DNA of 64,000 nt from an uncultured Gammaproteobacteria bacterium (lineage in GTDB: Bacteria > Patescibacteriota > Microgenomatia > Daviesbacterales > UBA10151), in assembly GCA_964523905.1 (NCBI GenBank), contig CAZFYQ010000002.1, positions 2,177 to 66,176 on the forward strand, read 5' to 3'. A program made the translations under genes and the position numbers. The notes under the pieces are model-generated. The model was not told the DNA's origin. It saw nothing but the letters and a program-made list of their open reading frames with translations, and searched no databases. Of this stretch, positions 3,416 to 30,775 are shown piece after piece. The stretch's first letter is position 1; every line of letters begins with the position of its first letter.

Positions 3416-4995
3416 GTTTTGCTGATGTGACTCAGGGAAAATTTAAAAGTAGCATCGGTTTTCTTATGAGGGTTAAAAATATCTTTTGGATCAAAAATAT
3501 TTTTTACTTGTTTAAATAGCTGATAAACATTTTCTCCGTACACTTTTTCCAAATATGGCCCCCGAATTAAGCCGTCATTGTGCTCAGCTGTTAAAGACCC
3601 TTCAAATTCTAGGACTAAATTAACTACTTTGCCCATTAGTTCCATAATTTTTTCCCTGACCTTATCATTTCTAAAATCTATTAAGGGAATAATATGGAAA
3701 TTTCCCTCCCCAATATGCCCGGCAATGGTATAAAGCATGTATGATTTGTAATTTTCTAAGAGCTTTTTTAATTTGGGTAAAAATACCGGTAGTTTCTCGG
3801 GTCTGACAATAATGTCATCAATAAAAGGAGCTGTTCGCATATCTTTGGAATGAAGTCTTAGCAGATTAAAACTTTCATGACGAACCCGCCAATACTTGTC
3901 CTCAATAGCTTGATCAGTAATTATTTTACTGTGAACATTTAATTGCTTAAGAGCTTCATGGGTTTTCTGACAAAGTTCAGTTACTTCTTGCGGGGAATCT
4001 GCGCTAAACTGGGCCATCAAAACCATGGAGGGTAAAGTACTAGTGAAAATATCTTTAGTGTCAGGTAGAAACTTTATAGCATACTGGATTGTCTCATCAT
4101 CAAAGCACTCAAAAGTTTCTGGTTTAAATTTTAAAACTTCATTTACCACTTGATCTAAATTATCCAAACTGTCTAAATTAATTACCAAAAGGGCAAAATT
4201 AGGTTTTGGCTTAATCAGTTTAAAATTAATTTCAGTGATAATTCCTAAAGTTCCTTGAGAACCGGTGATGAGCTTGGTTAAATCAAAGGTTTGTCCGTCC
4301 CAAACTTCCCATAAAAAGTATCCAGAAGAGTTTTTATGGACCTTGGGTTTGGCTTTTTGGATTAACTGCTGGTTTTCTGAAATCAACTTATAGATGTTTT
4401 TGTAAACCCTACCAAGCAGATTCTCTTGGTTTACTTTTTCCCGCAAAACTTCCGCAGAAACTGGTTCAATTAAATATTCATTGCCATCTGACAGGATAAT
4501 TTTTACTGAGTTAATGTAATTTTTTGTTTGACCATAGGATAAAGTTTTTTCTCCACCAGAGTTGTTGGCAATAATCCCTCCAACAGTGCAGATTTCCCTA
4601 GACGCTGGGTAAGACGGAAATAGCAAGCCTTTTTTTAAAGTTTCTTTTTCAAAATCGCGATAATATACACCAGGTTGAGTAATGGCAAAATCTTTTCCTA
4701 CCTCAATTATCTTATTAAAGTGTTTGGTCATGTCCAGAATAATTGAGTCATTAATGGCTCCCCCGCTCATATCAGTGCCGGCACTGCGGACGGTTAAAGA
4801 AAGTTTTTGATTATTTGAGCTTGATTGAGTAACAAATTTAACCAGGGACTTAATGTCCTCAACATCTTTGGGTGCTACGGCAATTTGTGGTTGGATTTGA
4901 AAAATAGAAGCATCAGTTGAAAATTTGTTTAAAGTTTCTGCATCCTCAGTTACTTCACCTTTGATAATTTTCAGGAGATCGTCTTTAAGGGGCAT
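3412..4995 (-). CDS. FAD-linked oxidase (GlcD / D-lactate dehydrogenase-like)
   Basis: 527 aa with a PCMH-type FAD-binding region (NNSGGEKTLSYG, GSQGTLGIITE). Confidence 0.8.
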   Translation of the reverse strand: MPLKDDLLKIIKGEVTEDAETLNKFSTDASIFQIQPQIAVAPKDVEDIKSLVKFVTQSSSNNQKLSLTVRSAGTDMSGGAINDSIILDMTKHFNKIIEVGKDFAITQPGVYYRDFEKETLKKGLLFPSYPASREICTVGGIIANNSGGEKTLSYGQTKNYINSVKIILSDGNEYLIEPVSAEVLREKVNQENLLGRVYKNIYKLISENQQLIQKAKPKVHKNSSGYFLWEVWDGQTFDLTKLITGSQGTLGIITEINFKLIKPKPNFALLVINLDSLDNLDQVVNEVLKFKPETFECFDDETIQYAIKFLPDTKDIFTSTLPSMVLMAQFSADSPQEVTELCQKTHEALKQLNVHSKIITDQAIEDKYWRVRHESFNLLRLHSKDMRTAPFIDDIIVRPEKLPVFLPKLKKLLENYKSYMLYTIAGHIGEGNFHIIPLIDFRNDKVREKIMELMGKVVNLVLEFEGSLTAEHNDGLIRGPYLEKVYGENVYQLFKQVKNIFDPKDIFNPHKKTDATFKFSLSHISKT

Positions 4996-26445: not shown

Positions 26446-26886
26446 GTGAAATGTCCTTTCTGTGCAAGCGATTTAAGCAAAGTAGTTGATAAAAGGTCAG
26501 TAACTGGACGGGGTGAAATCAGAAGACGAAGGCAGTGTCTTAAGTGTGATAAAAGATTTACCACGTATGAGTCTTTGGCTCAACTACAACTGGCGGTGCT
26601 AAAAAAAGACGGCACCAGACAGGCATTTGATGGGGAAAAGATTAGGAGAGGGTTAATTAGGGCTTTGGAAAAACGGCCGGGAATAGAAAAAGTGGGCACT
26701 ATTGTGGATCGGATTGAAGGTAGAATTAGGGCTAGAAGACTTAGTGAAATTGAGTCAGCCACTTTAGGAAAATGGGTGCTGTCAGAGCTGAAAAAATTGG
26801 ATGCGGTGGCATATCTTCGATATGTTAGTGTCTACCGATCTTTTGGAGACTTAAAAGACTTTAGTAAAGAATTAGAAACACTATGA
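26446..26886 (+). CDS. nrdR: Transcriptional repressor NrdR
   Basis: A zinc ribbon KCPFC...CLKC followed by an ATP-cone. GTG start chosen to give the canonical MKCPFC N-terminus; the ORF-track start is 26413. Confidence 0.85.
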   Translation: MKCPFCASDLSKVVDKRSVTGRGEIRRRRQCLKCDKRFTTYESLAQLQLAVLKKDGTRQAFDGEKIRRGLIRALEKRPGIEKVGTIVDRIEGRIRARRLSEIESATLGKWVLSELKKLDAVAYLRYVSVYRSFGDLKDFSKELETL

Positions 26887-29800
26887 AAACAAAATCAAAG
26901 AGTAAATCAATATCACAAATCGTTACAATGCCCAGGGTTAATGGACAAAGAAAAACTAATGGTCATAACGATGAAAGAACTTTTGAAACCAGGTTTACGC
27001 CCCGCTATAAAAAAATGCCAGCTTTGCCTCAGGGTTTACCAGAGCCATCATTTTCTGAATCTTCCAATAAAATTTTAATTGAAAGATATTTGTTAAAAGG
27101 CGGTAATTTGGAAGTGGTAGAAACCGTGGCTGAAAGGTTTTGGCATATAGCCTATGACATTGCCTCCGGTGATATGGATTTTGGTGCCTCTGAAAAAGAT
27201 GTCACAGAACTTGCCAAAGGGTTTTTCTCTGTGATGGTTAATCAACAATTTTTACCTAACTCCCCCACCATCATGAATGCTGGAAAGCAAAATGGTTTGC
27301 AATATTCCGCTTGTTTTGTGTTGCCGGTGGGGGATTCTTTGCCGGAGATTTTTGACTCTGTTAAATATGCTGCTTTAATTCATCAAACCGGTGGCGGAAC
27401 CGGTTTTGCATTTTCCAGGCTTCGCGCAGCCGGTTCTATTGTAAATACCACTGGTGGTGTGGCTTCCGGGCCAGTATCATTCCTGCGGGTGTTTAATGCT
27501 GCTACTGAATCTATTAAACAAGGTGGCACCAGAAGAGGAGCTAATATGGGAATTTTGCGGGTGGATCATCCGGATGTAATGGAATTTATCCGCTGTAAAG
27601 CAGAGCTGGATGATTTAAATAAACCAGTTTATGAAGGAGTGGCACCATTACTTGCCGATGACAGCGCCAGAAGCTATTTTAAGACGCTTTTGTTGGATAA
27701 ACAAATTGCCAACTTTAATATTTCCGTGGCCATTACTGATAAGTTCATGAAAGCTTTGCAAACTGATGGCGATTTTGATTTGATTGCTCCTCATGATGGC
27801 TCAGTAGTGGGACAGTTAAATGCTAAGGCAGTGTTTGATGAGATTATTGAACGGGCTTGGGCAACCGGAGACCCGGGATTGATTTTTATTGACCGCATTA
27901 ATAACTCCCCTGCCAACCCGGTACCATCTTTGGAAACCATTGAATCCACTAATCCTTGTGTTACTGGAGATACTTTAGTTGCAACAGATAATGGATGGCA
28001 ACGTGCAGATAGTATTAAAATAGGTGATAGAATCAGCACTGTATTAGGCAGTGGTGAAGTAGATCAGGTAGAAGTATATGAGGATCGCTCTGTTTTTAAA
28101 GTAAAATTTTCTGATGGTGCAGAAATAAGAGCAACGGCCGCCCACCAATTTCATGCTATTGTTCATGAGCAGAGAACCAAAAATTCAGCCAATAAACAAT
28201 TTTCCCCAATAAAACTCGAGGATTTAAAGGTAGGAGATATGGTGAGGATAGCACCTGCCATTATGCCTGATAATGCTGTTTCTGATCTACCTACGGGATG
28301 GACAGAAAGAGAATATGGTTTTTTTGTCGGAGTGCTTTTAGGGGATGGTTGTATTACTGAAAAAACCTTAACAAGAAATGTAGTAAAGGTAGCAGTAAAC
28401 ACTAATGAAAAGGAATGGACTGAAATCATTAAGAATGTTTTACACAAGGCGGGTTCAAAGGTAGTAAACCTTGATCGTAGCGCTGGTTTTTCTGCTAATT
28501 TAACAGTACAAAATGCCGGGGGTGCAGCAATGTTGGTTAGAAACTCTTTTTTGAAACCTGCCTATTCTTACGAGAAAAGTATACCTTTAGAATACCAGAA
28601 TACTAACAGACAGTTTTTATCAGGACTTTTAGATGGACTTTATTCAACAGACGGAAATGTAAATTTAACCAGTACACATCCTTTTTTAAGATTAAAAACT
28701 ACTAGTAAAAAACTAGCTCAAGATTTACGCAGAATTTTATTATCTTTTGGTATTCATGGAAGAATAGTTACTATTAAAAAGGTTGCTGATAGTCATATAG
28801 GAGATAGAATAATCACCGCGAAACATATTCAATATGAAGTGATAGTTTCTGGATCAAGCATGAAAACTTTTGCTCAACAAATTACTCTTTCTCATCCTGA
28901 TAAACAAAAAAGAATACAGCGGGCTCAGCTGACTTTTGCTTTAACGGGTAACACTTGGTTATCACAAATTACCTCCATTGAACCAGATGGTATAGAAAAA
29001 GTATACGATTTGCATGAACCAGTTTCAGATACCTGGTTAACAGAGGGTGTAGTTAGCCGTGGATGTGGCGAGCAACCATTGGCTCCTTGGGATGCATGTA
29101 ATTTGGGATCAATTAATTTGGGTAAATTTGTCTTGGCTGATGGATCAGATGTAGATTGGGAAGGATTAAAATCAGTCACTCACCAGGCAGTGCACTTTTT
29201 GGATAATGTAGTGCAAACCAATCCGTATACTTTAAAGCCAATTTATGATGAAGTTCACAACAACCGCCGAATTGGTTTAGGGGTAATGGGTTGGGCAGAT
29301 ATGCTGTTTTTACTGCAAATTCCCTATGATTCTGAGGAAGCTTTGGAACTAGGAGAAAAAGTGATGAAATTTATTAATGATGAAGGTCATATGGAATCTG
29401 AAGACCTAGCTAGCAAAAGAGGACCCTTCCCTAACTGGATAAACTCAATTTATGCCCAAAAAGGTCATAAATCCTTTAAAGCCAGACCAGATGGATCCTT
29501 TGCCTTTGAAGGTGGTCGGCCAATTAGAAATTCTACCGTCACTACCATTGCACCAACAGGGACAATTTCGATTATTGGTGATTGTTCATCGGGAATTGAG
29601 CCGGTCTTTGCTTTGGCTTATATTCACCGCGCTAAAAAAGCCGGGGATGAAATGCGATATTTAACTATTGCTAATAAAACCTTTGATCAAATTGCCAAAA
29701 GAGAAGGTTTTTGGTCACCGGATTTAGCTCAAAAAGTAATGGATAATGGATCTGTGTTTGGTTTGGATGATGTGCCTCAAAACTGGCAGAAAGTGTTTAC

Positions 29801-30641
29801 TACTGCCCCGCAAATTTCTCCGGATTATCATGTCAGGATGCAGGCCGCTTTTCAAAGATATACTGATAATGGAGTTTCCAAAACCATTAATTTGCCAAAC
29901 TGGGCCACCCGTGATGATGTTAGAAATGCTTACCTTTCTGCTTGGGATACTGGTTGTAATGGTATTACCATTTATAGAGATGGTAGTAAAACCACTCAGG
30001 TATTAAATGTTTCTTCTACTTTAAAACCAGCTCAAGTGGCTGCTGAGGAAGTGCCAGTCGCTGCCAGGCCAATGATTTTACGGGGTCGCACTTATAAAAT
30101 TACTACCCCGGTGGGAGAAGCATTTATTACTATTAATCGAGATGAAGGGGATCAGCCATTTGAAGTATTTATTACGGTTGGAAAGGGTGGCATGCACACT
30201 ATGGCTGATGCTGAGGCCATGGGAAGACTCGTATCTTTGTCTTTAAGACTTTCTCGCGCCGGAGGAGAAAGTACTGCTAAAGAAATTGCAGGGAAGATTG
30301 CTGAGCAGCTGCGGGGAATTGGTGGATCATCTCATGTTGGATTTGGTAAAAACAGGGTGATGAGTTTGGCCGATGCGATTGCCAAGGTTTTATCAGAGGA
30401 TATGGCGGTGGGTATAAATAATGAAGGTTTAGAGAATACTGAACCAATACCTCTAAATTTAACTATGAGTAATGGTGAGCAGAAGTTAGATACTGGAAAT
30501 TTGAAGTTGGAAGATCAAGCTTCTAGCCTCTCGCTTCCAGTTTCTAGCAATGCTGATCTTTGTCCAGAATGTGGCTCCGCTACTTTCGTAATGGAAGAGG
30601 GCTGTAAGAAATGTCATAGCTGTGGGTACAGTATGTGCTAA
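26883..30641 (+). CDS. nrdJ: Class II (adenosylcobalamin-dependent) ribonucleotide reductase NrdJ, interrupted by an in-frame intein
   Basis: The NPCGEQPL active-site motif is split as ..STNP | intein | CGEQPL.., with a C-terminal CxxC..CxxC zinc ribbon. The ATG overlaps the nrdR stop (ATGA). Confidence 0.9.
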   Translation: MKTKSKSKSISQIVTMPRVNGQRKTNGHNDERTFETRFTPRYKKMPALPQGLPEPSFSESSNKILIERYLLKGGNLEVVETVAERFWHIAYDIASGDMDFGASEKDVTELAKGFFSVMVNQQFLPNSPTIMNAGKQNGLQYSACFVLPVGDSLPEIFDSVKYAALIHQTGGGTGFAFSRLRAAGSIVNTTGGVASGPVSFLRVFNAATESIKQGGTRRGANMGILRVDHPDVMEFIRCKAELDDLNKPVYEGVAPLLADDSARSYFKTLLLDKQIANFNISVAITDKFMKALQTDGDFDLIAPHDGSVVGQLNAKAVFDEIIERAWATGDPGLIFIDRINNSPANPVPSLETIESTNPCVTGDTLVATDNGWQRADSIKIGDRISTVLGSGEVDQVEVYEDRSVFKVKFSDGAEIRATAAHQFHAIVHEQRTKNSANKQFSPIKLEDLKVGDMVRIAPAIMPDNAVSDLPTGWTEREYGFFVGVLLGDGCITEKTLTRNVVKVAVNTNEKEWTEIIKNVLHKAGSKVVNLDRSAGFSANLTVQNAGGAAMLVRNSFLKPAYSYEKSIPLEYQNTNRQFLSGLLDGLYSTDGNVNLTSTHPFLRLKTTSKKLAQDLRRILLSFGIHGRIVTIKKVADSHIGDRIITAKHIQYEVIVSGSSMKTFAQQITLSHPDKQKRIQRAQLTFALTGNTWLSQITSIEPDGIEKVYDLHEPVSDTWLTEGVVSRGCGEQPLAPWDACNLGSINLGKFVLADGSDVDWEGLKSVTHQAVHFLDNVVQTNPYTLKPIYDEVHNNRRIGLGVMGWADMLFLLQIPYDSEEALELGEKVMKFINDEGHMESEDLASKRGPFPNWINSIYAQKGHKSFKARPDGSFAFEGGRPIRNSTVTTIAPTGTISIIGDCSSGIEPVFALAYIHRAKKAGDEMRYLTIANKTFDQIAKREGFWSPDLAQKVMDNGSVFGLDDVPQNWQKVFTTAPQISPDYHVRMQAAFQRYTDNGVSKTINLPNWATRDDVRNAYLSAWDTGCNGITIYRDGSKTTQVLNVSSTLKPAQVAAEEVPVAARPMILRGRTYKITTPVGEAFITINRDEGDQPFEVFITVGKGGMHTMADAEAMGRLVSLSLRLSRAGGESTAKEIAGKIAEQLRGIGGSSHVGFGKNRVMSLADAIAKVLSEDMAVGINNEGLENTEPIPLNLTMSNGEQKLDTGNLKLEDQASSLSLPVSSNADLCPECGSATFVMEEGCKKCHSCGYSMC
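27957..29063 (+). mobile_element. Intein with LAGLIDADG homing-endonuclease domain inside nrdJ (369 aa)
   Basis: Block A CVTGDTLV, block B RATAAHQF, LAGLIDADG blocks YGFFVGVLLGDGCI and FLSGLLDGLYSTDGNV, and block F/G-like KVYDLHEPVSDTWLTEGVVSRG followed by the extein Cys. Confidence 0.85.
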
Positions 30642-30649
30642 CATTTCTT
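30604..30649 (+). other. Hairpin 1 spanning nrdJ last codons and stop (9-bp stem aagaaatgt/acatttctt)
   Basis: Perfect inverted repeat enclosing the codons for HSCGYSMC and the stop. Confidence 0.6.
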
Positions 30650-30662
30650 GCGACCTGCGGTC

Positions 30663-30710
30663 TTAAAAAGTGCCACAGTTGCGGCTACTCAATGTGCTAG
30701 GCACTTTTTG
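30663..30710 (+). terminator. Hairpin 2 (10-bp stem aaaaagtgcc/ggcacttttt + T-run), probable intrinsic terminator; encodes a recoded copy of KKCHSCGYSMC*
   Basis: Perfect 10-bp stem followed by tttttg. The loop and stem read K K C H S C G Y S M C stop in the -1 frame relative to nrdJ. Confidence 0.6.
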
Positions 30711-30775
30711 CGCTAGCTCCACAACTTTACCTTGCTTATTAAAATTATTTGTAATACGATTTAAGAACTTATCAC

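What the first reader, a model, noticed from the sequence alone, without database searches (positions are those of the whole stretch)
30604..30710. Last 11 codons of nrdJ are repeated downstream in synonymously recoded form, each copy embedded in its own perfect hairpin
nrdJ ends aag aaa tgt cat agc tgt ggg tac agt atg tgc taa (KKCHSCGYSMC*). Twenty-three nt later the sequence reads aaa aag tgc cac agt tgc ggc tac tca atg tgc tag, which is the same 11 residues plus stop in the -1 frame. Ten of twelve codons differ, and every difference is synonymous, including an AGT to TCA serine switch. Each copy sits in a hairpin with a perfect stem (aagaaatgt/acatttctt, 9 bp; aaaaagtgcc/ggcacttttt, 10 bp). 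The stem changes are therefore compensatory for pairing and synonymous for coding at the same time. The second hairpin ends in a T-run and likely terminates the operon. Purely synonymous divergence argues that the second copy is or recently was under protein-level selection. It could be an alternative C-terminus reached by frameshifting. It could be a remnant of the 3' end of a displaced nrdJ allele after recombination, for instance intein- or HGT-associated gene conversion. Or it could be a structured RNA element under dual constraint.
Basis: seen in the sequence. Interest (0 to 1): 0.7.

Follow-up and report, generated by a model that had tools for sequence, protein, structure and literature searches.

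The report
Recoded nrdJ tail copies with hairpins
The last 11 codons of an essential DNA-precursor gene (nrdJ) in a tiny groundwater bacterium are followed by a second, synonymously rewritten copy; related species carry one to five such extra copies, each in a short hairpin-forming unit, which looks like a small mobile insert that brings its own replacement gene end and pushes the old end downstream.

Summary
nrdJ ends KKCHSCGYSMC* at 30606-30641 and the same 11 residues plus stop recur at 30665-30700. There are 11 nt differences in 9 of 12 codons (not 10), all synonymous (P<1e-6). Each copy is closed by a perfect 9- or 10-bp hairpin.

It is not a one-off. The organism is a Candidatus Daviesbacteria (CPR) relative. 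Seven of 65 related species genomes and three metagenome contigs carry 1-5 extra tail copies after nrdJ. Only nrdJ does this among 1220 ORFs scanned.

Every non-terminal copy has a downstream arm that covaries with its own Lys-Lys-Cys codons (P1). A conserved spacer hairpin follows (P2, sometimes P3). Single-copy loci have neither.

Carriers are scattered over the NrdJ tree. Spacers are near-identical between hosts whose synonymous sites are saturated.

Best reading (about 0.45): an ORF-less insertion module that targets the nrdJ 3' end and carries a recoded rescue tail. Downstream copies are then displaced, untranslated former gene ends. Frameshifting is rejected because copy spacing falls in all three frames. 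The insertion mechanism and enzyme are unknown. A host-serving 3'-UTR structure remains possible.

The parts
26883..30641 (+). nrdJ, class II (B12-dependent) ribonucleotide reductase, 1252 aa. It carries a LAGLIDADG intein at the NPC|GEQ active-site motif and a C-terminal Cys-rich tail.
   Evidence: ORF list and translation. Pfam Ribonuc_red_lgC 3.6e-124, Ribonuc_red_lgN, TSCPD, LAGLIDADG_3. nrdR lies upstream and cobO downstream.
30606..30641 (+). Tail copy 1 (proximal, translated): KKCHSCGYSMC plus TAA. Codon choice is the type seen in most array-bearing loci (AAG AAA TGT CAT AGC TGT GGN TAY AGT ATG TGC TRA).
   Evidence: The codon-usage contrast with 55 single-copy loci starts sharply at codon -1.
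30606..30649 (+). Hairpin P1 of unit 1. The 5' strand is AAGAAATGT (30606-30614, Lys-Lys-Cys codons). The 3' strand is ACATTTCTT (30641-30649, last A of the stop plus 8 nt). An inner stem CATA/CTGT with ACAG/TATG extends it.
   Evidence: I11, 9/9. Folds. Covariation across 15 units.
30650..30664 (+). Spacer S (short type B1): GC, then hairpin P2 GACC-TGC-GGTC, then TT. It is unique in the 64-kb window. The identical 15 nt occur in metagenome locus L081.
   Evidence: 22/23 identity to L081 against 0.69 for the adjacent tails. (single occurrence in the window). (P2 predicted).
30665..30700 (+). Tail copy 2 (not in the nrdJ frame, no start codon): the same 11 residues plus TAG, with 11 synonymous nucleotide differences from copy 1.
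   Evidence: (D1).
30665..30709 (+). Hairpin P1 of unit 2. The 5' strand is AAAAAGTGCC (30665-30674). The 3' strand is GGCACTTTTT (30700-30709, G of the stop plus 9 nt).
   Evidence: I5, 10/10..
30710..30712 (+). GCG: the conserved first bases of a spacer (TTGCG(A) follows the arm in 13 of the 15 aligned units, TTTCGA in the other two). Here unrelated sequence follows, so unit 2 looks truncated and no third (bare native) tail is present.
   Evidence: Comparison with units in L007, L013, L021, L033, L047, L053, L081 and L082. No further tail in the window by regex or nhmmer.

Best explanation
The window holds two copies of a short, ORF-less insertion module specific to the 3' end of nrdJ. A module has three parts:
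(i) its own copy of the last 11 codons plus stop;
(ii) an 'arm' just after the stop that is the reverse complement of the first 9-14 nt of that copy, so the tail sits in a hairpin (P1);
(iii) a spacer that begins (T)TGCGA, forms a second hairpin (P2, with an inner P3 in long versions) and ends CTT.

I infer that the module enters at the boundary between the Gly-Cys codons and AAR AAR TGY. The gene then reads into the module's tail and stays intact. The tail that was there before is pushed downstream, out of frame and untranslated. Repeated entry and local duplication build arrays.

Under this reading the downstream copy looks purely synonymous for a historical reason. Each copy was, until displaced, the working end of some nrdJ allele. 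Within some arrays it is also refreshed by short gene conversion. It is not translated now.

In the window, unit 1 (30606-30664) supplies the working tail. Unit 2 (30665-30712) is an older unit that has lost its spacer and the native tail.

Shown: recurrence, anatomy, covariation, patchy distribution, spacer conservation across saturated host divergence, and restriction to nrdJ.

Inferred: insertion as the origin, the direction of displacement, and horizontal spread.

Unknown: the enzyme and whether the hairpins act in DNA or RNA.
For: Recurrence. Extra tails occur in L007, L013, L021, L033, L047, L053 (five extra) and L062 among 65 Daviesbacteria species genomes, and in L081 and L082/L083 from metagenomes.

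Arm and spacer occur only where another tail follows. Single-copy loci have best stems of 3-6 nt, rarely 7, among the 65 Daviesbacteria-like loci, and the last tail of an array normally lacks an arm. Armed tails fold end to end (mean -12.8 against -7.7 kcal/mol).

P1 covariation. 97.3% of cells pair against 90.0% in shuffles (0/500). There are 19 double-change cells against 7.6 (0/500). Slid registers give 41-54%. The arm matches its upstream tail at least as well as the downstream tail in all 15 units that have one, and strictly better in 13.

P2 and P3 covary, with a conserved loop motif AATCGTTGT.

Patchy distribution. Most carriers have single-copy nearest neighbours in the NrdJ tree (the exception is the L033/L082 sister pair).

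Spacer conservation far above host background. Window versus L081 is 22/23, although nrdJ third positions are about 0.3-0.5 identical. A 63-nt block is identical in L013 and L033, whose neighbouring Y1-transposase proteins are only 70.6% identical. Equally distant L021 has a spacer about 70% identical.

Sharp left boundary. Proximal-tail codon usage differs from 55 single-copy loci from codon -1 onward (TGT p=7e-4, AAG p=3e-4, TGT p=1.5e-3). It does not differ at codons -16 to -2.

Displaced copies show the first signs of decay. There are 94 synonymous against 3 nonsynonymous codon differences, and the three are all in downstream copies (Y to C in L047; K to N and M to I in L053, though SIC also occurs as a working single-copy tail). 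One middle tail in L033 is replaced by an unrelated hairpin.

Precedents for a gene end brought in by an insert with the native end left downstream: fungal mitochondrial mORF hybrids (PMC3630166) and e14 in icd/icdC (PMC13626634).
Against: No empty-site versus filled-site pair from closely related strains was found, so insertion is inferred, not seen.

No nuclease, transposase or integrase lies between the tails. None is enriched nearby: a RAYT-like gene is next to nrdJ in 4 of 11 array loci against 23 of 55 others, has its own different hairpin, and is absent from the window.

Tails flanking the same spacer are not more alike than random tails. For all 10 proximal tails the permutation p is 0.27. 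Only a post hoc subset of 7 gives p = 0.005. The window's proximal tail resembles L081's distal tail more than L081's proximal tail. So the mobile unit may be the spacer alone, or tails may be rewritten after arrival.

The nearest-neighbour test of which tail is native is inconclusive overall, and it points the other way in L047.

No half-decayed tails exist (bimodal nhmmer scores). That requires fast turnover or some force preserving them.

The proximal-type codon choice could be convergent selection for the hairpin rather than common descent.

Only about 11 loci are available.
Confidence: 0.45

Rival explanations
1. Host-serving cis element. The hairpins (P1, P2, P3) are an old, selected structure at the 3' end of the nrdJ transcript or locus, for example an mRNA 3'-end stabiliser, a processing site or a protein-binding site. 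It is inherited vertically and lost many times by recombination between the direct repeats. The tail copies persist because their first codons are one strand of P1.
For: Stems covary and loops are conserved, as in functional structured nucleic acids. Spacer divergence roughly tracks host distance for L047 and L053. L033 keeps a hairpin at the position of a lost middle tail. The sister loci L033 and L082 share the same A+B order. The element is always in the same place and orientation.
Against: It is absent from about 85% of related species, which is odd for something so tightly conserved. Only the first 9-14 nt of a tail are needed for P1, yet all 36 nt keep coding sense. The spacer is 100% identical between L013 and L033 but about 70% identical in equally distant L021. 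There is no Rfam match and no canonical terminator. Almost no G.U pairs occur.
Confidence: 0.22
2. Passive scar of allele replacement. Foreign nrdJ DNA recombined into the locus by transformation and homologous or illegitimate recombination, leaving the old 3' end behind. Hairpins and spacers are by-products such as palindromic junctions, with no function and no element.
For: Deep synonymous divergence between the tails of one locus, including AGY/TCN serine switches, needs two allele lineages. [Arm-spacer-next tail start] is one long palindrome, and the 3' half of spacer B2 equals the native Gly-Cys codons (AGGCTGT), as expected of fold-back junctions. Identical runs of 18-20 nt between tails within L033 and L082 show recombination acting locally.
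Against: Independent scars would not share near-identical spacers with sharp borders in distant hosts. They would not show compensatory changes in three helices, and they would not stack into arrays of distinct spacer subtypes (L053). No co-transferred upstream tract is seen (the up81 column).
Confidence: 0.12
3. Spare-part or decoy array. The downstream tails are kept by selection as recoded templates. If the working tail is cut by a sequence-specific nuclease or hit by an insertion, single-strand annealing between the direct repeats could rebuild an intact, possibly resistant, nrdJ end.
For: Downstream tails are intact far more often than neutral decay predicts (94:3, no half-decayed copies). 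Tails within one array differ at nearly every synonymous site. Chimeric tails exist in single-copy relatives (L028, L064, L057).
Against: This needs second-order selection, and no tail-targeting nuclease is known or seen. It does not explain the arms or the conserved spacers. Fast turnover explains the intact state equally well.
Confidence: 0.08
4. Alternative C-terminus reached by -1 frameshifting or other recoding.
For: In the window the second copy lies in the -1 frame, and that frame is open for 29 codons before its stop.
Against: The product would carry the same 11 residues after a junk linker. No slippery heptamer is apparent in 30608-30638 (read by eye). Homologous loci have spacings in all three frames.
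Confidence: 0.01

Closest known systems
Mobile endonuclease ORFs (mORFs) that create hybrid genes in fungal mitochondria (Allomyces atp6, Paquin et al. 1994; Glomus atp6/atp9/cox2/nad3, PMC3630166)
   Same: An insert near the 3' end of a conserved gene brings a foreign, nucleotide-divergent but protein-identical C-terminal coding segment. That segment becomes the working end. The native C-terminal segment remains just downstream.
   Different: Those inserts carry a homing-endonuclease ORF of 0.4-1 kb that has been shown to drive mobility. Here there is no ORF, only 23-70 nt of hairpins. The duplicated segment is only 36 nt, and units stack in tandem.
Integrative elements that rebuild their target gene, e.g. 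prophage e14 in E. coli icd with the icdC fragment (PMC13626634; Hill et al. 1989)
   Same: The element supplies an alternative 3' end that differs mostly synonymously. The original 3' fragment is left as a downstream pseudogene. Loss of the element recombines the two into a chimera. Chimeric tails in single-copy relatives would be the analogue here.
   Different: In e14 the two copies flank a 15-kb element with an integrase and serve as att sites. Here they are 23-70 nt apart (112 nt in L033, across a degenerate middle unit), with no recombinase and no cargo.
REP/REPIN hairpins with RAYT, and IS200/IS605-derived hairpin elements (PATEs)
   Same: These are short ORF-less palindromic units, sometimes in clusters, thought to be moved in trans as single-stranded DNA by Y1 HUH transposases. 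In IS608 the cleavage and target site is read by base pairing with bases next to the hairpin foot (my knowledge). A RAYT-like gene sits next to nrdJ in 27 of the 65 Daviesbacteria-like loci.
   Different: REPs are dispersed in many copies and do not carry gene ends, whereas these units are found only at nrdJ. The local RAYT-like gene has a different cognate hairpin (ACTTCCACC/GGTGGAAGT) and is not associated with arrays.
Palindromic GC clusters and double-hairpin elements of fungal mitochondrial DNA (PMC4478555; Paquin et al. 2000)
   Same: These are small hairpin-forming ORF-less elements with sporadic distribution and merging and shuffling of modules. They are exchanged between species via conserved flanks, with co-conversion tracts.
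   Different: They are multi-copy and mostly intergenic, and they do not restore a coding end.
Synthetic home-and-rescue gene drives (recalled from memory, not checked here)
   Same: The design logic matches: insert into an essential gene and carry a recoded copy of its 3' portion, so that carriers stay viable and the carried copy differs from the target.
   Different: Those are engineered, with Cas9 and a guide RNA as cargo. No nuclease is identified here.

Membership tests
Programmed -1 ribosomal frameshift site | Slippery heptamer X XXY YYZ upstream of the stop, with a fixed frame relation between the two coding segments | tested here: not met
   No slippery heptamer is apparent in 30608-30638 (read by eye). 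Spacings of 59, 62, 75, 96, 99, 100, 101 and 106 nt in homologous loci cover all three frames.
Intrinsic (Rho-independent) terminator | Short GC-rich stem, 3-8 nt loop, followed by an unpaired U-run | tested here: not met
   P1 stems are AT-rich with 22-26 nt loops, and the T-run is itself the 3' strand of the stem. No + strand terminator was called in the window or in L053.
Homing-endonuclease (mORF-type) C-terminal replacement | Duplicated C-terminal coding segment, nucleotide-divergent but protein-conserved, with one copy in frame with the gene | tested here: met
Homing-endonuclease (mORF-type) C-terminal replacement | Endonuclease ORF between the inserted and the native C-terminal segments | tested here: not met
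   The tails are 23-70 nt apart (112 nt in L033, across a degenerate middle unit) with no ORF. No further tail lies within 3 kb downstream in any locus.
Homing-endonuclease (mORF-type) C-terminal replacement | The native segment matches close relatives better than the inserted one | tested here: inconclusive
   Relatives are too distant: background identity is 28.2 +/- 2.6 of 36. L033 and L082 favour a native distal tail, L047 the reverse.
Integrase-mediated integration into a gene 3' end (e14/icd type) | The two copies flank an element that encodes a site-specific recombinase | tested here: not met
   No cargo or recombinase lies between or beside the tails.
REP/REPIN-RAYT or IS200/IS605-derived hairpin element | Multiple dispersed copies in the genome | tested here: not met
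   Spacer B1 is unique in the 64-kb window. Spacer A occurs only after nrdJ in about 0.6 Mb of window plus loci. Whole genomes were not available.
REP/REPIN-RAYT or IS200/IS605-derived hairpin element | Cognate Y1 (HUH) transposase present and flanked by the same hairpins | tested here: not met
   A RAYT-like gene is near nrdJ in 27 loci. It is flanked by a different hairpin, is not enriched in array loci, and is absent from the window.
REP/REPIN-RAYT or IS200/IS605-derived hairpin element | Cleavage or insertion of single-stranded hairpin DNA by the transposase | not testable with these tools
   This needs biochemistry.
Known structured RNA family (Rfam 15) | Match to a covariance model at or near its gathering score | tested here: not met
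   The best hits have E of 0.05 or more and lie far below gathering scores.
Diversity-generating retroelement (VR/TR pair at a gene 3' end) | Differences confined to adenines of the template repeat, with a reverse transcriptase nearby | tested here: not met
   The differences are G/A, A/G, T/C, C/T, G/C and AGT/TCA, all synonymous. No RT is among the neighbours.
CRISPR array | Identical repeats separating variable spacers | tested here: not met
   Here the 36-nt units are the similar but non-identical part, and the intervening sequences differ in type and length.

The most novel reading that the evidence does not exclude
A natural, ORF-less 'home-and-rescue' element. The arm next to the P2 hairpin would act as an internal guide that base-pairs with the Lys-Lys-Cys codons of nrdJ in single-stranded DNA. 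This would resemble the guide/target pairing of IS200/IS605 ends, but over 9-14 nt. A trans-acting enzyme, possibly a Y1/RAYT-like HUH protein, would then insert the module precisely at the most conserved 36 nt of an essential gene. The carried recoded tail keeps the host alive. Arrays would be a stacked fossil record of serial invasions by different module lineages in CPR bacteria.
Probability: 0.15. Interest if true: 0.85.

Novelty: new variant of a known kind. Interest (0 to 1): 0.66.

Why it matters
Ribonucleotide reductase genes are the classic landing site for inteins, introns and homing endonucleases, because their conserved sites make safe, universal targets. This would add a new and much smaller kind of occupant. 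It is a 59-106-nt unit with no gene of its own. It keeps the host gene whole by carrying a rewritten copy of the last 11 codons.

It also gives a clean natural example of one DNA stretch under two constraints at once. Synonymous third positions of three or four codons covary with a non-coding partner strand.

If the units really move, they pose a sharp mechanistic question: what inserts them, and how is a 36-nt target read? They would be a tractable system in the little-understood CPR bacteria. They also affect practice. Tail repeats break or collapse assemblies at nrdJ (three related loci have gaps or contig ends exactly there), and they could mislead gene-end annotation.

Tried and rejected
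- Frameshift or alternative C-terminus: rejected on frames and the lack of a slippery site.
- Assembly artefact: rejected, given 10 independent assemblies and two identical arrays from different metagenomes.
- General property of gene ends in these genomes: rejected, because only nrdJ shows it among 1220 ORFs.
- Known RNA family: none.
- Classical terminator: not called.
- DGR and CRISPR: the patterns do not fit.
- Phage origin: no tail-plus-arm pattern and no spacer B1 in IMG/VR. The two spacer-A 17-mer hits are chance matches inside unrelated coding sequence. Only one distant viral NrdJ was found.
- Link to the intein: rejected. L053 has an array but no intein, and several loci have the intein but no array.
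- RAYT-like neighbour as the mover: no association, and a different cognate hairpin.
- Small ORF ending in the distal tail: I read no in-frame ATG in the spacer, and stops occur in some homologues.
- Finding the window's own strain or close relatives for an empty-site comparison: NrdJ, NrdR and the downstream DUF5671 protein are not on record. The best protein relatives are 73% identical or less. Of two further look-ups, one gave a single-copy locus and the other returned no DNA.
- Which tail is native: the nearest-neighbour comparison is inconclusive.
- Common descent of all proximal tails: not significant (p = 0.27).
Full report
**1. What is in the window**

nrdJ (26883-30641, + strand, 1252 aa) is a class II ribonucleotide reductase. 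It has an N-terminal alpha domain, a barrel domain interrupted by a LAGLIDADG intein, and a TSCPD domain. nrdR lies immediately upstream. A DUF5671 gene, two unassigned ORFs, cobO (corrinoid adenosyltransferase) and lon lie downstream.

The gene ends aag aaa tgt cat agc tgt ggg tac agt atg tgc taa (30606-30641). After 23 nt the sequence reads aaa aag tgc cac agt tgc ggc tac tca atg tgc tag (30665-30700).

The repeat finder reports this 36-nt direct repeat at 72% identity.

All differences are synonymous. In one million simulated sets of 11 random substitutions, none preserved the peptide and the stop.

The 112-nt stretch folds into three hairpins: P1 of unit 1, a small GACC/GGTC hairpin, and P1 of unit 2. 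With DNA parameters the energy is -22.1 kcal/mol against -13.1 +/- 2.4 for shuffles (0 of 200 as good). With RNA parameters the excess is weaker (z = -2.1).

**2. It is recurrent and specific to nrdJ**

The C-terminal 257 aa retrieved 80 loci from species-representative genomes. The best 65 are Candidatus Daviesbacteria or Microgenomates MAGs at 52-72% identity, so the window comes from a CPR bacterium without a close sequenced relative.

Six-frame scans found additional downstream copies of KKC[HY]SCGYSMC* in seven loci. L007, L013, L021, L033, L047 and L062 have one extra copy each. L053 has five extra copies at a spacing of about 100 nt.

A tail-plus-arm DNA pattern found three more loci in JGI metagenomes. 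L081 has exactly the window's 15-nt spacer. L082 and L083 are two samples that carry the same three-tail array. The pattern found none in viral contigs.

Three further loci have assembly gaps or a contig end exactly in the tail (L042, L059, L031). That is what tandem tails would cause.

Among 1220 ORFs in the window and loci, only nrdJ has its C-terminal decapeptide plus stop repeated downstream. None of the 15 non-Daviesbacteria loci has the repeat.

**3. Anatomy of the unit**

Every tail that is followed by another tail has an 'arm' straight after, or overlapping, its stop codon. The arm is the reverse complement of the tail's first 9-14 nt. This is hairpin P1, with the remaining codons and the stop in the loop.

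After the arm comes GC (TC in two units) and a second hairpin, P2. P2 is GACC/GGTC in the window and L081, and GACAGC/GCTGTC in L007, L033 and L082. In L053 it is GAGAAT/ATTCTC, GATAAC/GTTATC or GATATT/AATATC.

In long spacers (about 50 nt after TTGC), P2 encloses a third hairpin, P3, whose loop carries a conserved AATCGTTGT motif. The spacer ends CTT (rarely CTA), and the next tail follows.

Single-copy loci have no such arm; among the 65 Daviesbacteria-like loci their best stems are 3-6 nt, rarely 7. The last tail of an array normally has none either. Tails with arms fold end to end (mean -12.8 kcal/mol). Single or last tails do not (-7.7 and -8.3 kcal/mol).

On an alignment of 15 units, 97.3% of P1 cells are standard pairs against 90.0% after shuffling partners (0/500). 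There are 19 cells with changes on both sides against 7.6 (0/500). Sliding the register gives 41-54%. The covarying positions are the third bases of the Lys, Lys, Cys and His/Tyr codons.

The arm fits its own upstream tail at least as well as the downstream tail in all 15 units that have a downstream tail, and strictly better in 13.

RNAalifold on ten long units recovers P1, P2 and P3. Ten of 22 pairs carry compensatory changes.

G.U pairs are almost absent: 1 of 149 cells in P1. The four non-pairs are all A.C. This is a weak hint that the palindromes are maintained in DNA rather than RNA.

In the window the second tail also has an arm and the first three spacer bases (GCG, 30710-30712). Unrelated sequence follows. 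So unit 2 looks truncated, and a bare native tail is missing.

**4. Evolutionary pattern**

Carriers are scattered over an NJ tree of the NrdJ C-terminal region, and most have single-copy nearest neighbours (the exception is the L033/L082 sister pair).

Host divergence is deep. Third-codon identity in a conserved 125-codon block of nrdJ is about 0.3-0.55 between carriers. A neighbouring gene product is 70.6% identical between L013 and L033.

Against that background the spacers are strikingly conserved, and the conservation has sharp borders. Window versus L081 is 22 of 23, while the flanking tails are 0.69 identical. L013, L033 and L082 share a block of about 63 nt with 0-1 differences, while their flanking tails differ at 5-8 synonymous sites. 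Equally distant L021 carries a spacer only about 70% identical, with compensated stem changes.

Such rate heterogeneity, together with absence from about 85% of species, is hard to reconcile with simple vertical inheritance of a host function. It suggests horizontal spread of at least the spacer.

Codon usage of the proximal (translated) tail in array loci differs from 55 single-copy loci. The difference begins abruptly at the Cys codon before the tail (TGT 9/10 against 17/55, p = 7e-4). It continues through the tail (AAG p = 3e-4; TGT p = 1.5e-3; TGT p = 0.012; AGT p = 0.016). No difference appears at the 15 codons upstream. This marks a left boundary at GGN | TGT AAG. It is compatible with an inserted tail, or with selection for the extended hairpin that these codons form (CATA-CTGT/ACAG-TATG).

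Across all arrays, downstream tails differ from the proximal tail by 94 synonymous and only 3 nonsynonymous codon changes. An nhmmer profile finds no half-decayed tails.

Within L033 and within L082 the proximal and distal tails share identical runs of 18-20 nt. This indicates local gene conversion. The window's two tails share no such runs, so conversion cannot be preserving the window's second copy now.

**5. Interpretation**

Two tails in one locus differ as much as nrdJ alleles of different species do, including AGY/TCN serine switches. One of them must therefore have been a working nrdJ end in another lineage until recently.

The simplest account has the following steps. A short module carrying its own tail, arm and spacer enters at the start of the last 11 codons. 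The gene stays intact because it reads into the module's tail. The resident tail is displaced and, being untranslated, either decays or is soon deleted by recombination between the direct repeats. Serial entries and local tandem duplication build arrays; in L053, units 3 and 4 are near-identical.

This is the logic of mORF-driven C-terminal replacement in fungal mitochondria (PMC3630166) and of e14 in icd/icdC (PMC13626634). Here, however, it happens without any ORF and at a scale of 59-106 nt. The ORF-less hairpin character recalls mitochondrial GC clusters and double-hairpin elements (PMC4478555) and bacterial REP/PATE elements.

Several points remain unexplained.
- Tails flanking identical spacers are not especially alike.
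- The native-versus-foreign test is inconclusive, and it is reversed in L047.
- No enzyme is identified.

A RAYT-like Y1 transposase gene lies convergent to nrdJ in 27 of the 65 Daviesbacteria-like loci. It has its own distinct hairpin (ACTTCCACC/GGTGGAAGT). It is not enriched in array loci and is absent from the window.

I put the insertion-module reading at about 0.45, a host-serving structured 3' element at about 0.22, a passive recombination scar at about 0.12 and a spare-part or decoy function at about 0.08. Frameshifting is effectively excluded.

**6.

Of the three interpretations, frameshifting is rejected. 'Displaced allele remnant' is the nearest to the evidence but understates a recurrent, structured and apparently mobile unit. 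'Dual constraint' is demonstrated for the arm-codon pairing.

**7. Verdict**

This is a real, recurrent and, as far as my literature searches show, undescribed feature of CPR nrdJ genes. It is a new variant of the known 'insert that restores its target's 3' end' theme. Its mechanism is unknown.

Noticed in passing
window ~27984-29060 (intein within nrdJ); also L017, L018, L023, L031, L056: The NrdJ intein at the NPC|GEQ site ends ...SDTW.TEG[IV][IV]SRG|CGEQ instead of the canonical His-Asn|Cys. The same ending is conserved in six species. A second intein family at the same site ends HN|C (L001, L025, L027, L033, L052, L066, L077-79). A conserved intein family without the terminal Asn would be unusual.
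   Followed up: partly
L007 4219-4863, L013 4814-5461, L021 4090-4734, L033 4194-4838 (all - strand) and 23 other loci; L087 3067-3720: A 214-aa RAYT-like Y1 (IS200-type) transposase gene lies convergent to nrdJ and upstream of cobO in 27 of the 65 Daviesbacteria-like loci. Scores are Pfam Y1_Tnp 31-34 bits and NCBIfam REP-associated tyrosine transposase 49.9 bits, below its cutoff of 80. It is conserved at 54-84% identity, as a domesticated single-copy gene would be. It is absent from the 64-kb window.
   Followed up: partly
L013 5503-5525, L021 4062-4082, L007 4186-4219; after the nrdJ stop in L005, L008, L012, L020, L038, L040: A REP-like hairpin, (A)CTTCCACC-5 nt-GGTGGAAG(T), flanks the RAYT-like gene. 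In several species it sits directly between the convergent nrdJ and RAYT stops. It is distinct from the tail-array spacers.
   Followed up: partly
L042 3722-3734; L059 3526-3624; L031 3735 (contig end): Runs of N or a contig end fall exactly inside the nrdJ tail. L042's downstream flank is homologous to that of array-bearing L013. This suggests that arrays break or collapse assemblies and are under-counted.
   Followed up: partly
L021 ~3838-3875, L032 and L049 just after the nrdJ stop; L047 ~3911-3940: Other short palindromic repeats lie right downstream of tails: GTCATTGCGAGGAGCGTAGCGACGAAACAATCT-like and GTCATTCCCGCGAAGGCGGGAATCC. The nrdJ 3' flank seems to be a general landing zone for hairpin elements.
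   Followed up: no
L007 3739-3778; L033 and L082 second spacers: Arm, spacer and the start of the next tail together form one long palindrome (19-nt arms, 84% complementary). The 3' half of spacer B2 (AGGCTGT) equals the native Gly-Cys codons that precede the tail. This hints that short spacers arose by fold-back copying of nrdJ sequence.
   Followed up: no
L033 3794-3823: At the position where sister locus L082 has a middle tail, L033 has an unrelated small hairpin (AAGAACTTGC...GCAAGACCTT) with no coding sense. A hairpin is kept while the tail is lost.
   Followed up: no
L070 ~3658-3715 (Anaerolineae): A single nrdJ tail is enclosed by an 8-bp stem TGCAAAAA/TTTTTGCA, formed by the Cys-Lys-Lys codons and post-stop sequence. 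It is a P1-like hairpin outside the CPR and could be chance.
   Followed up: no
L028, L064, L057, L050 (single-copy loci): These single tails use the codon choices typical of array-proximal tails, or chimeras of them (for example L028 AAGAAATGTCATAGCTGTGGGTATAGTATGTGCTAA), without an arm. They are possible footprints of lost units.
   Followed up: no
L087 78-2775: In the closest protein relative of the window (73% identity) the gene caller splits the nrdJ region into two overlapping ORFs of 479 and 424 aa. This could be a frameshift, an intein remnant or an assembly error.
   Followed up: no
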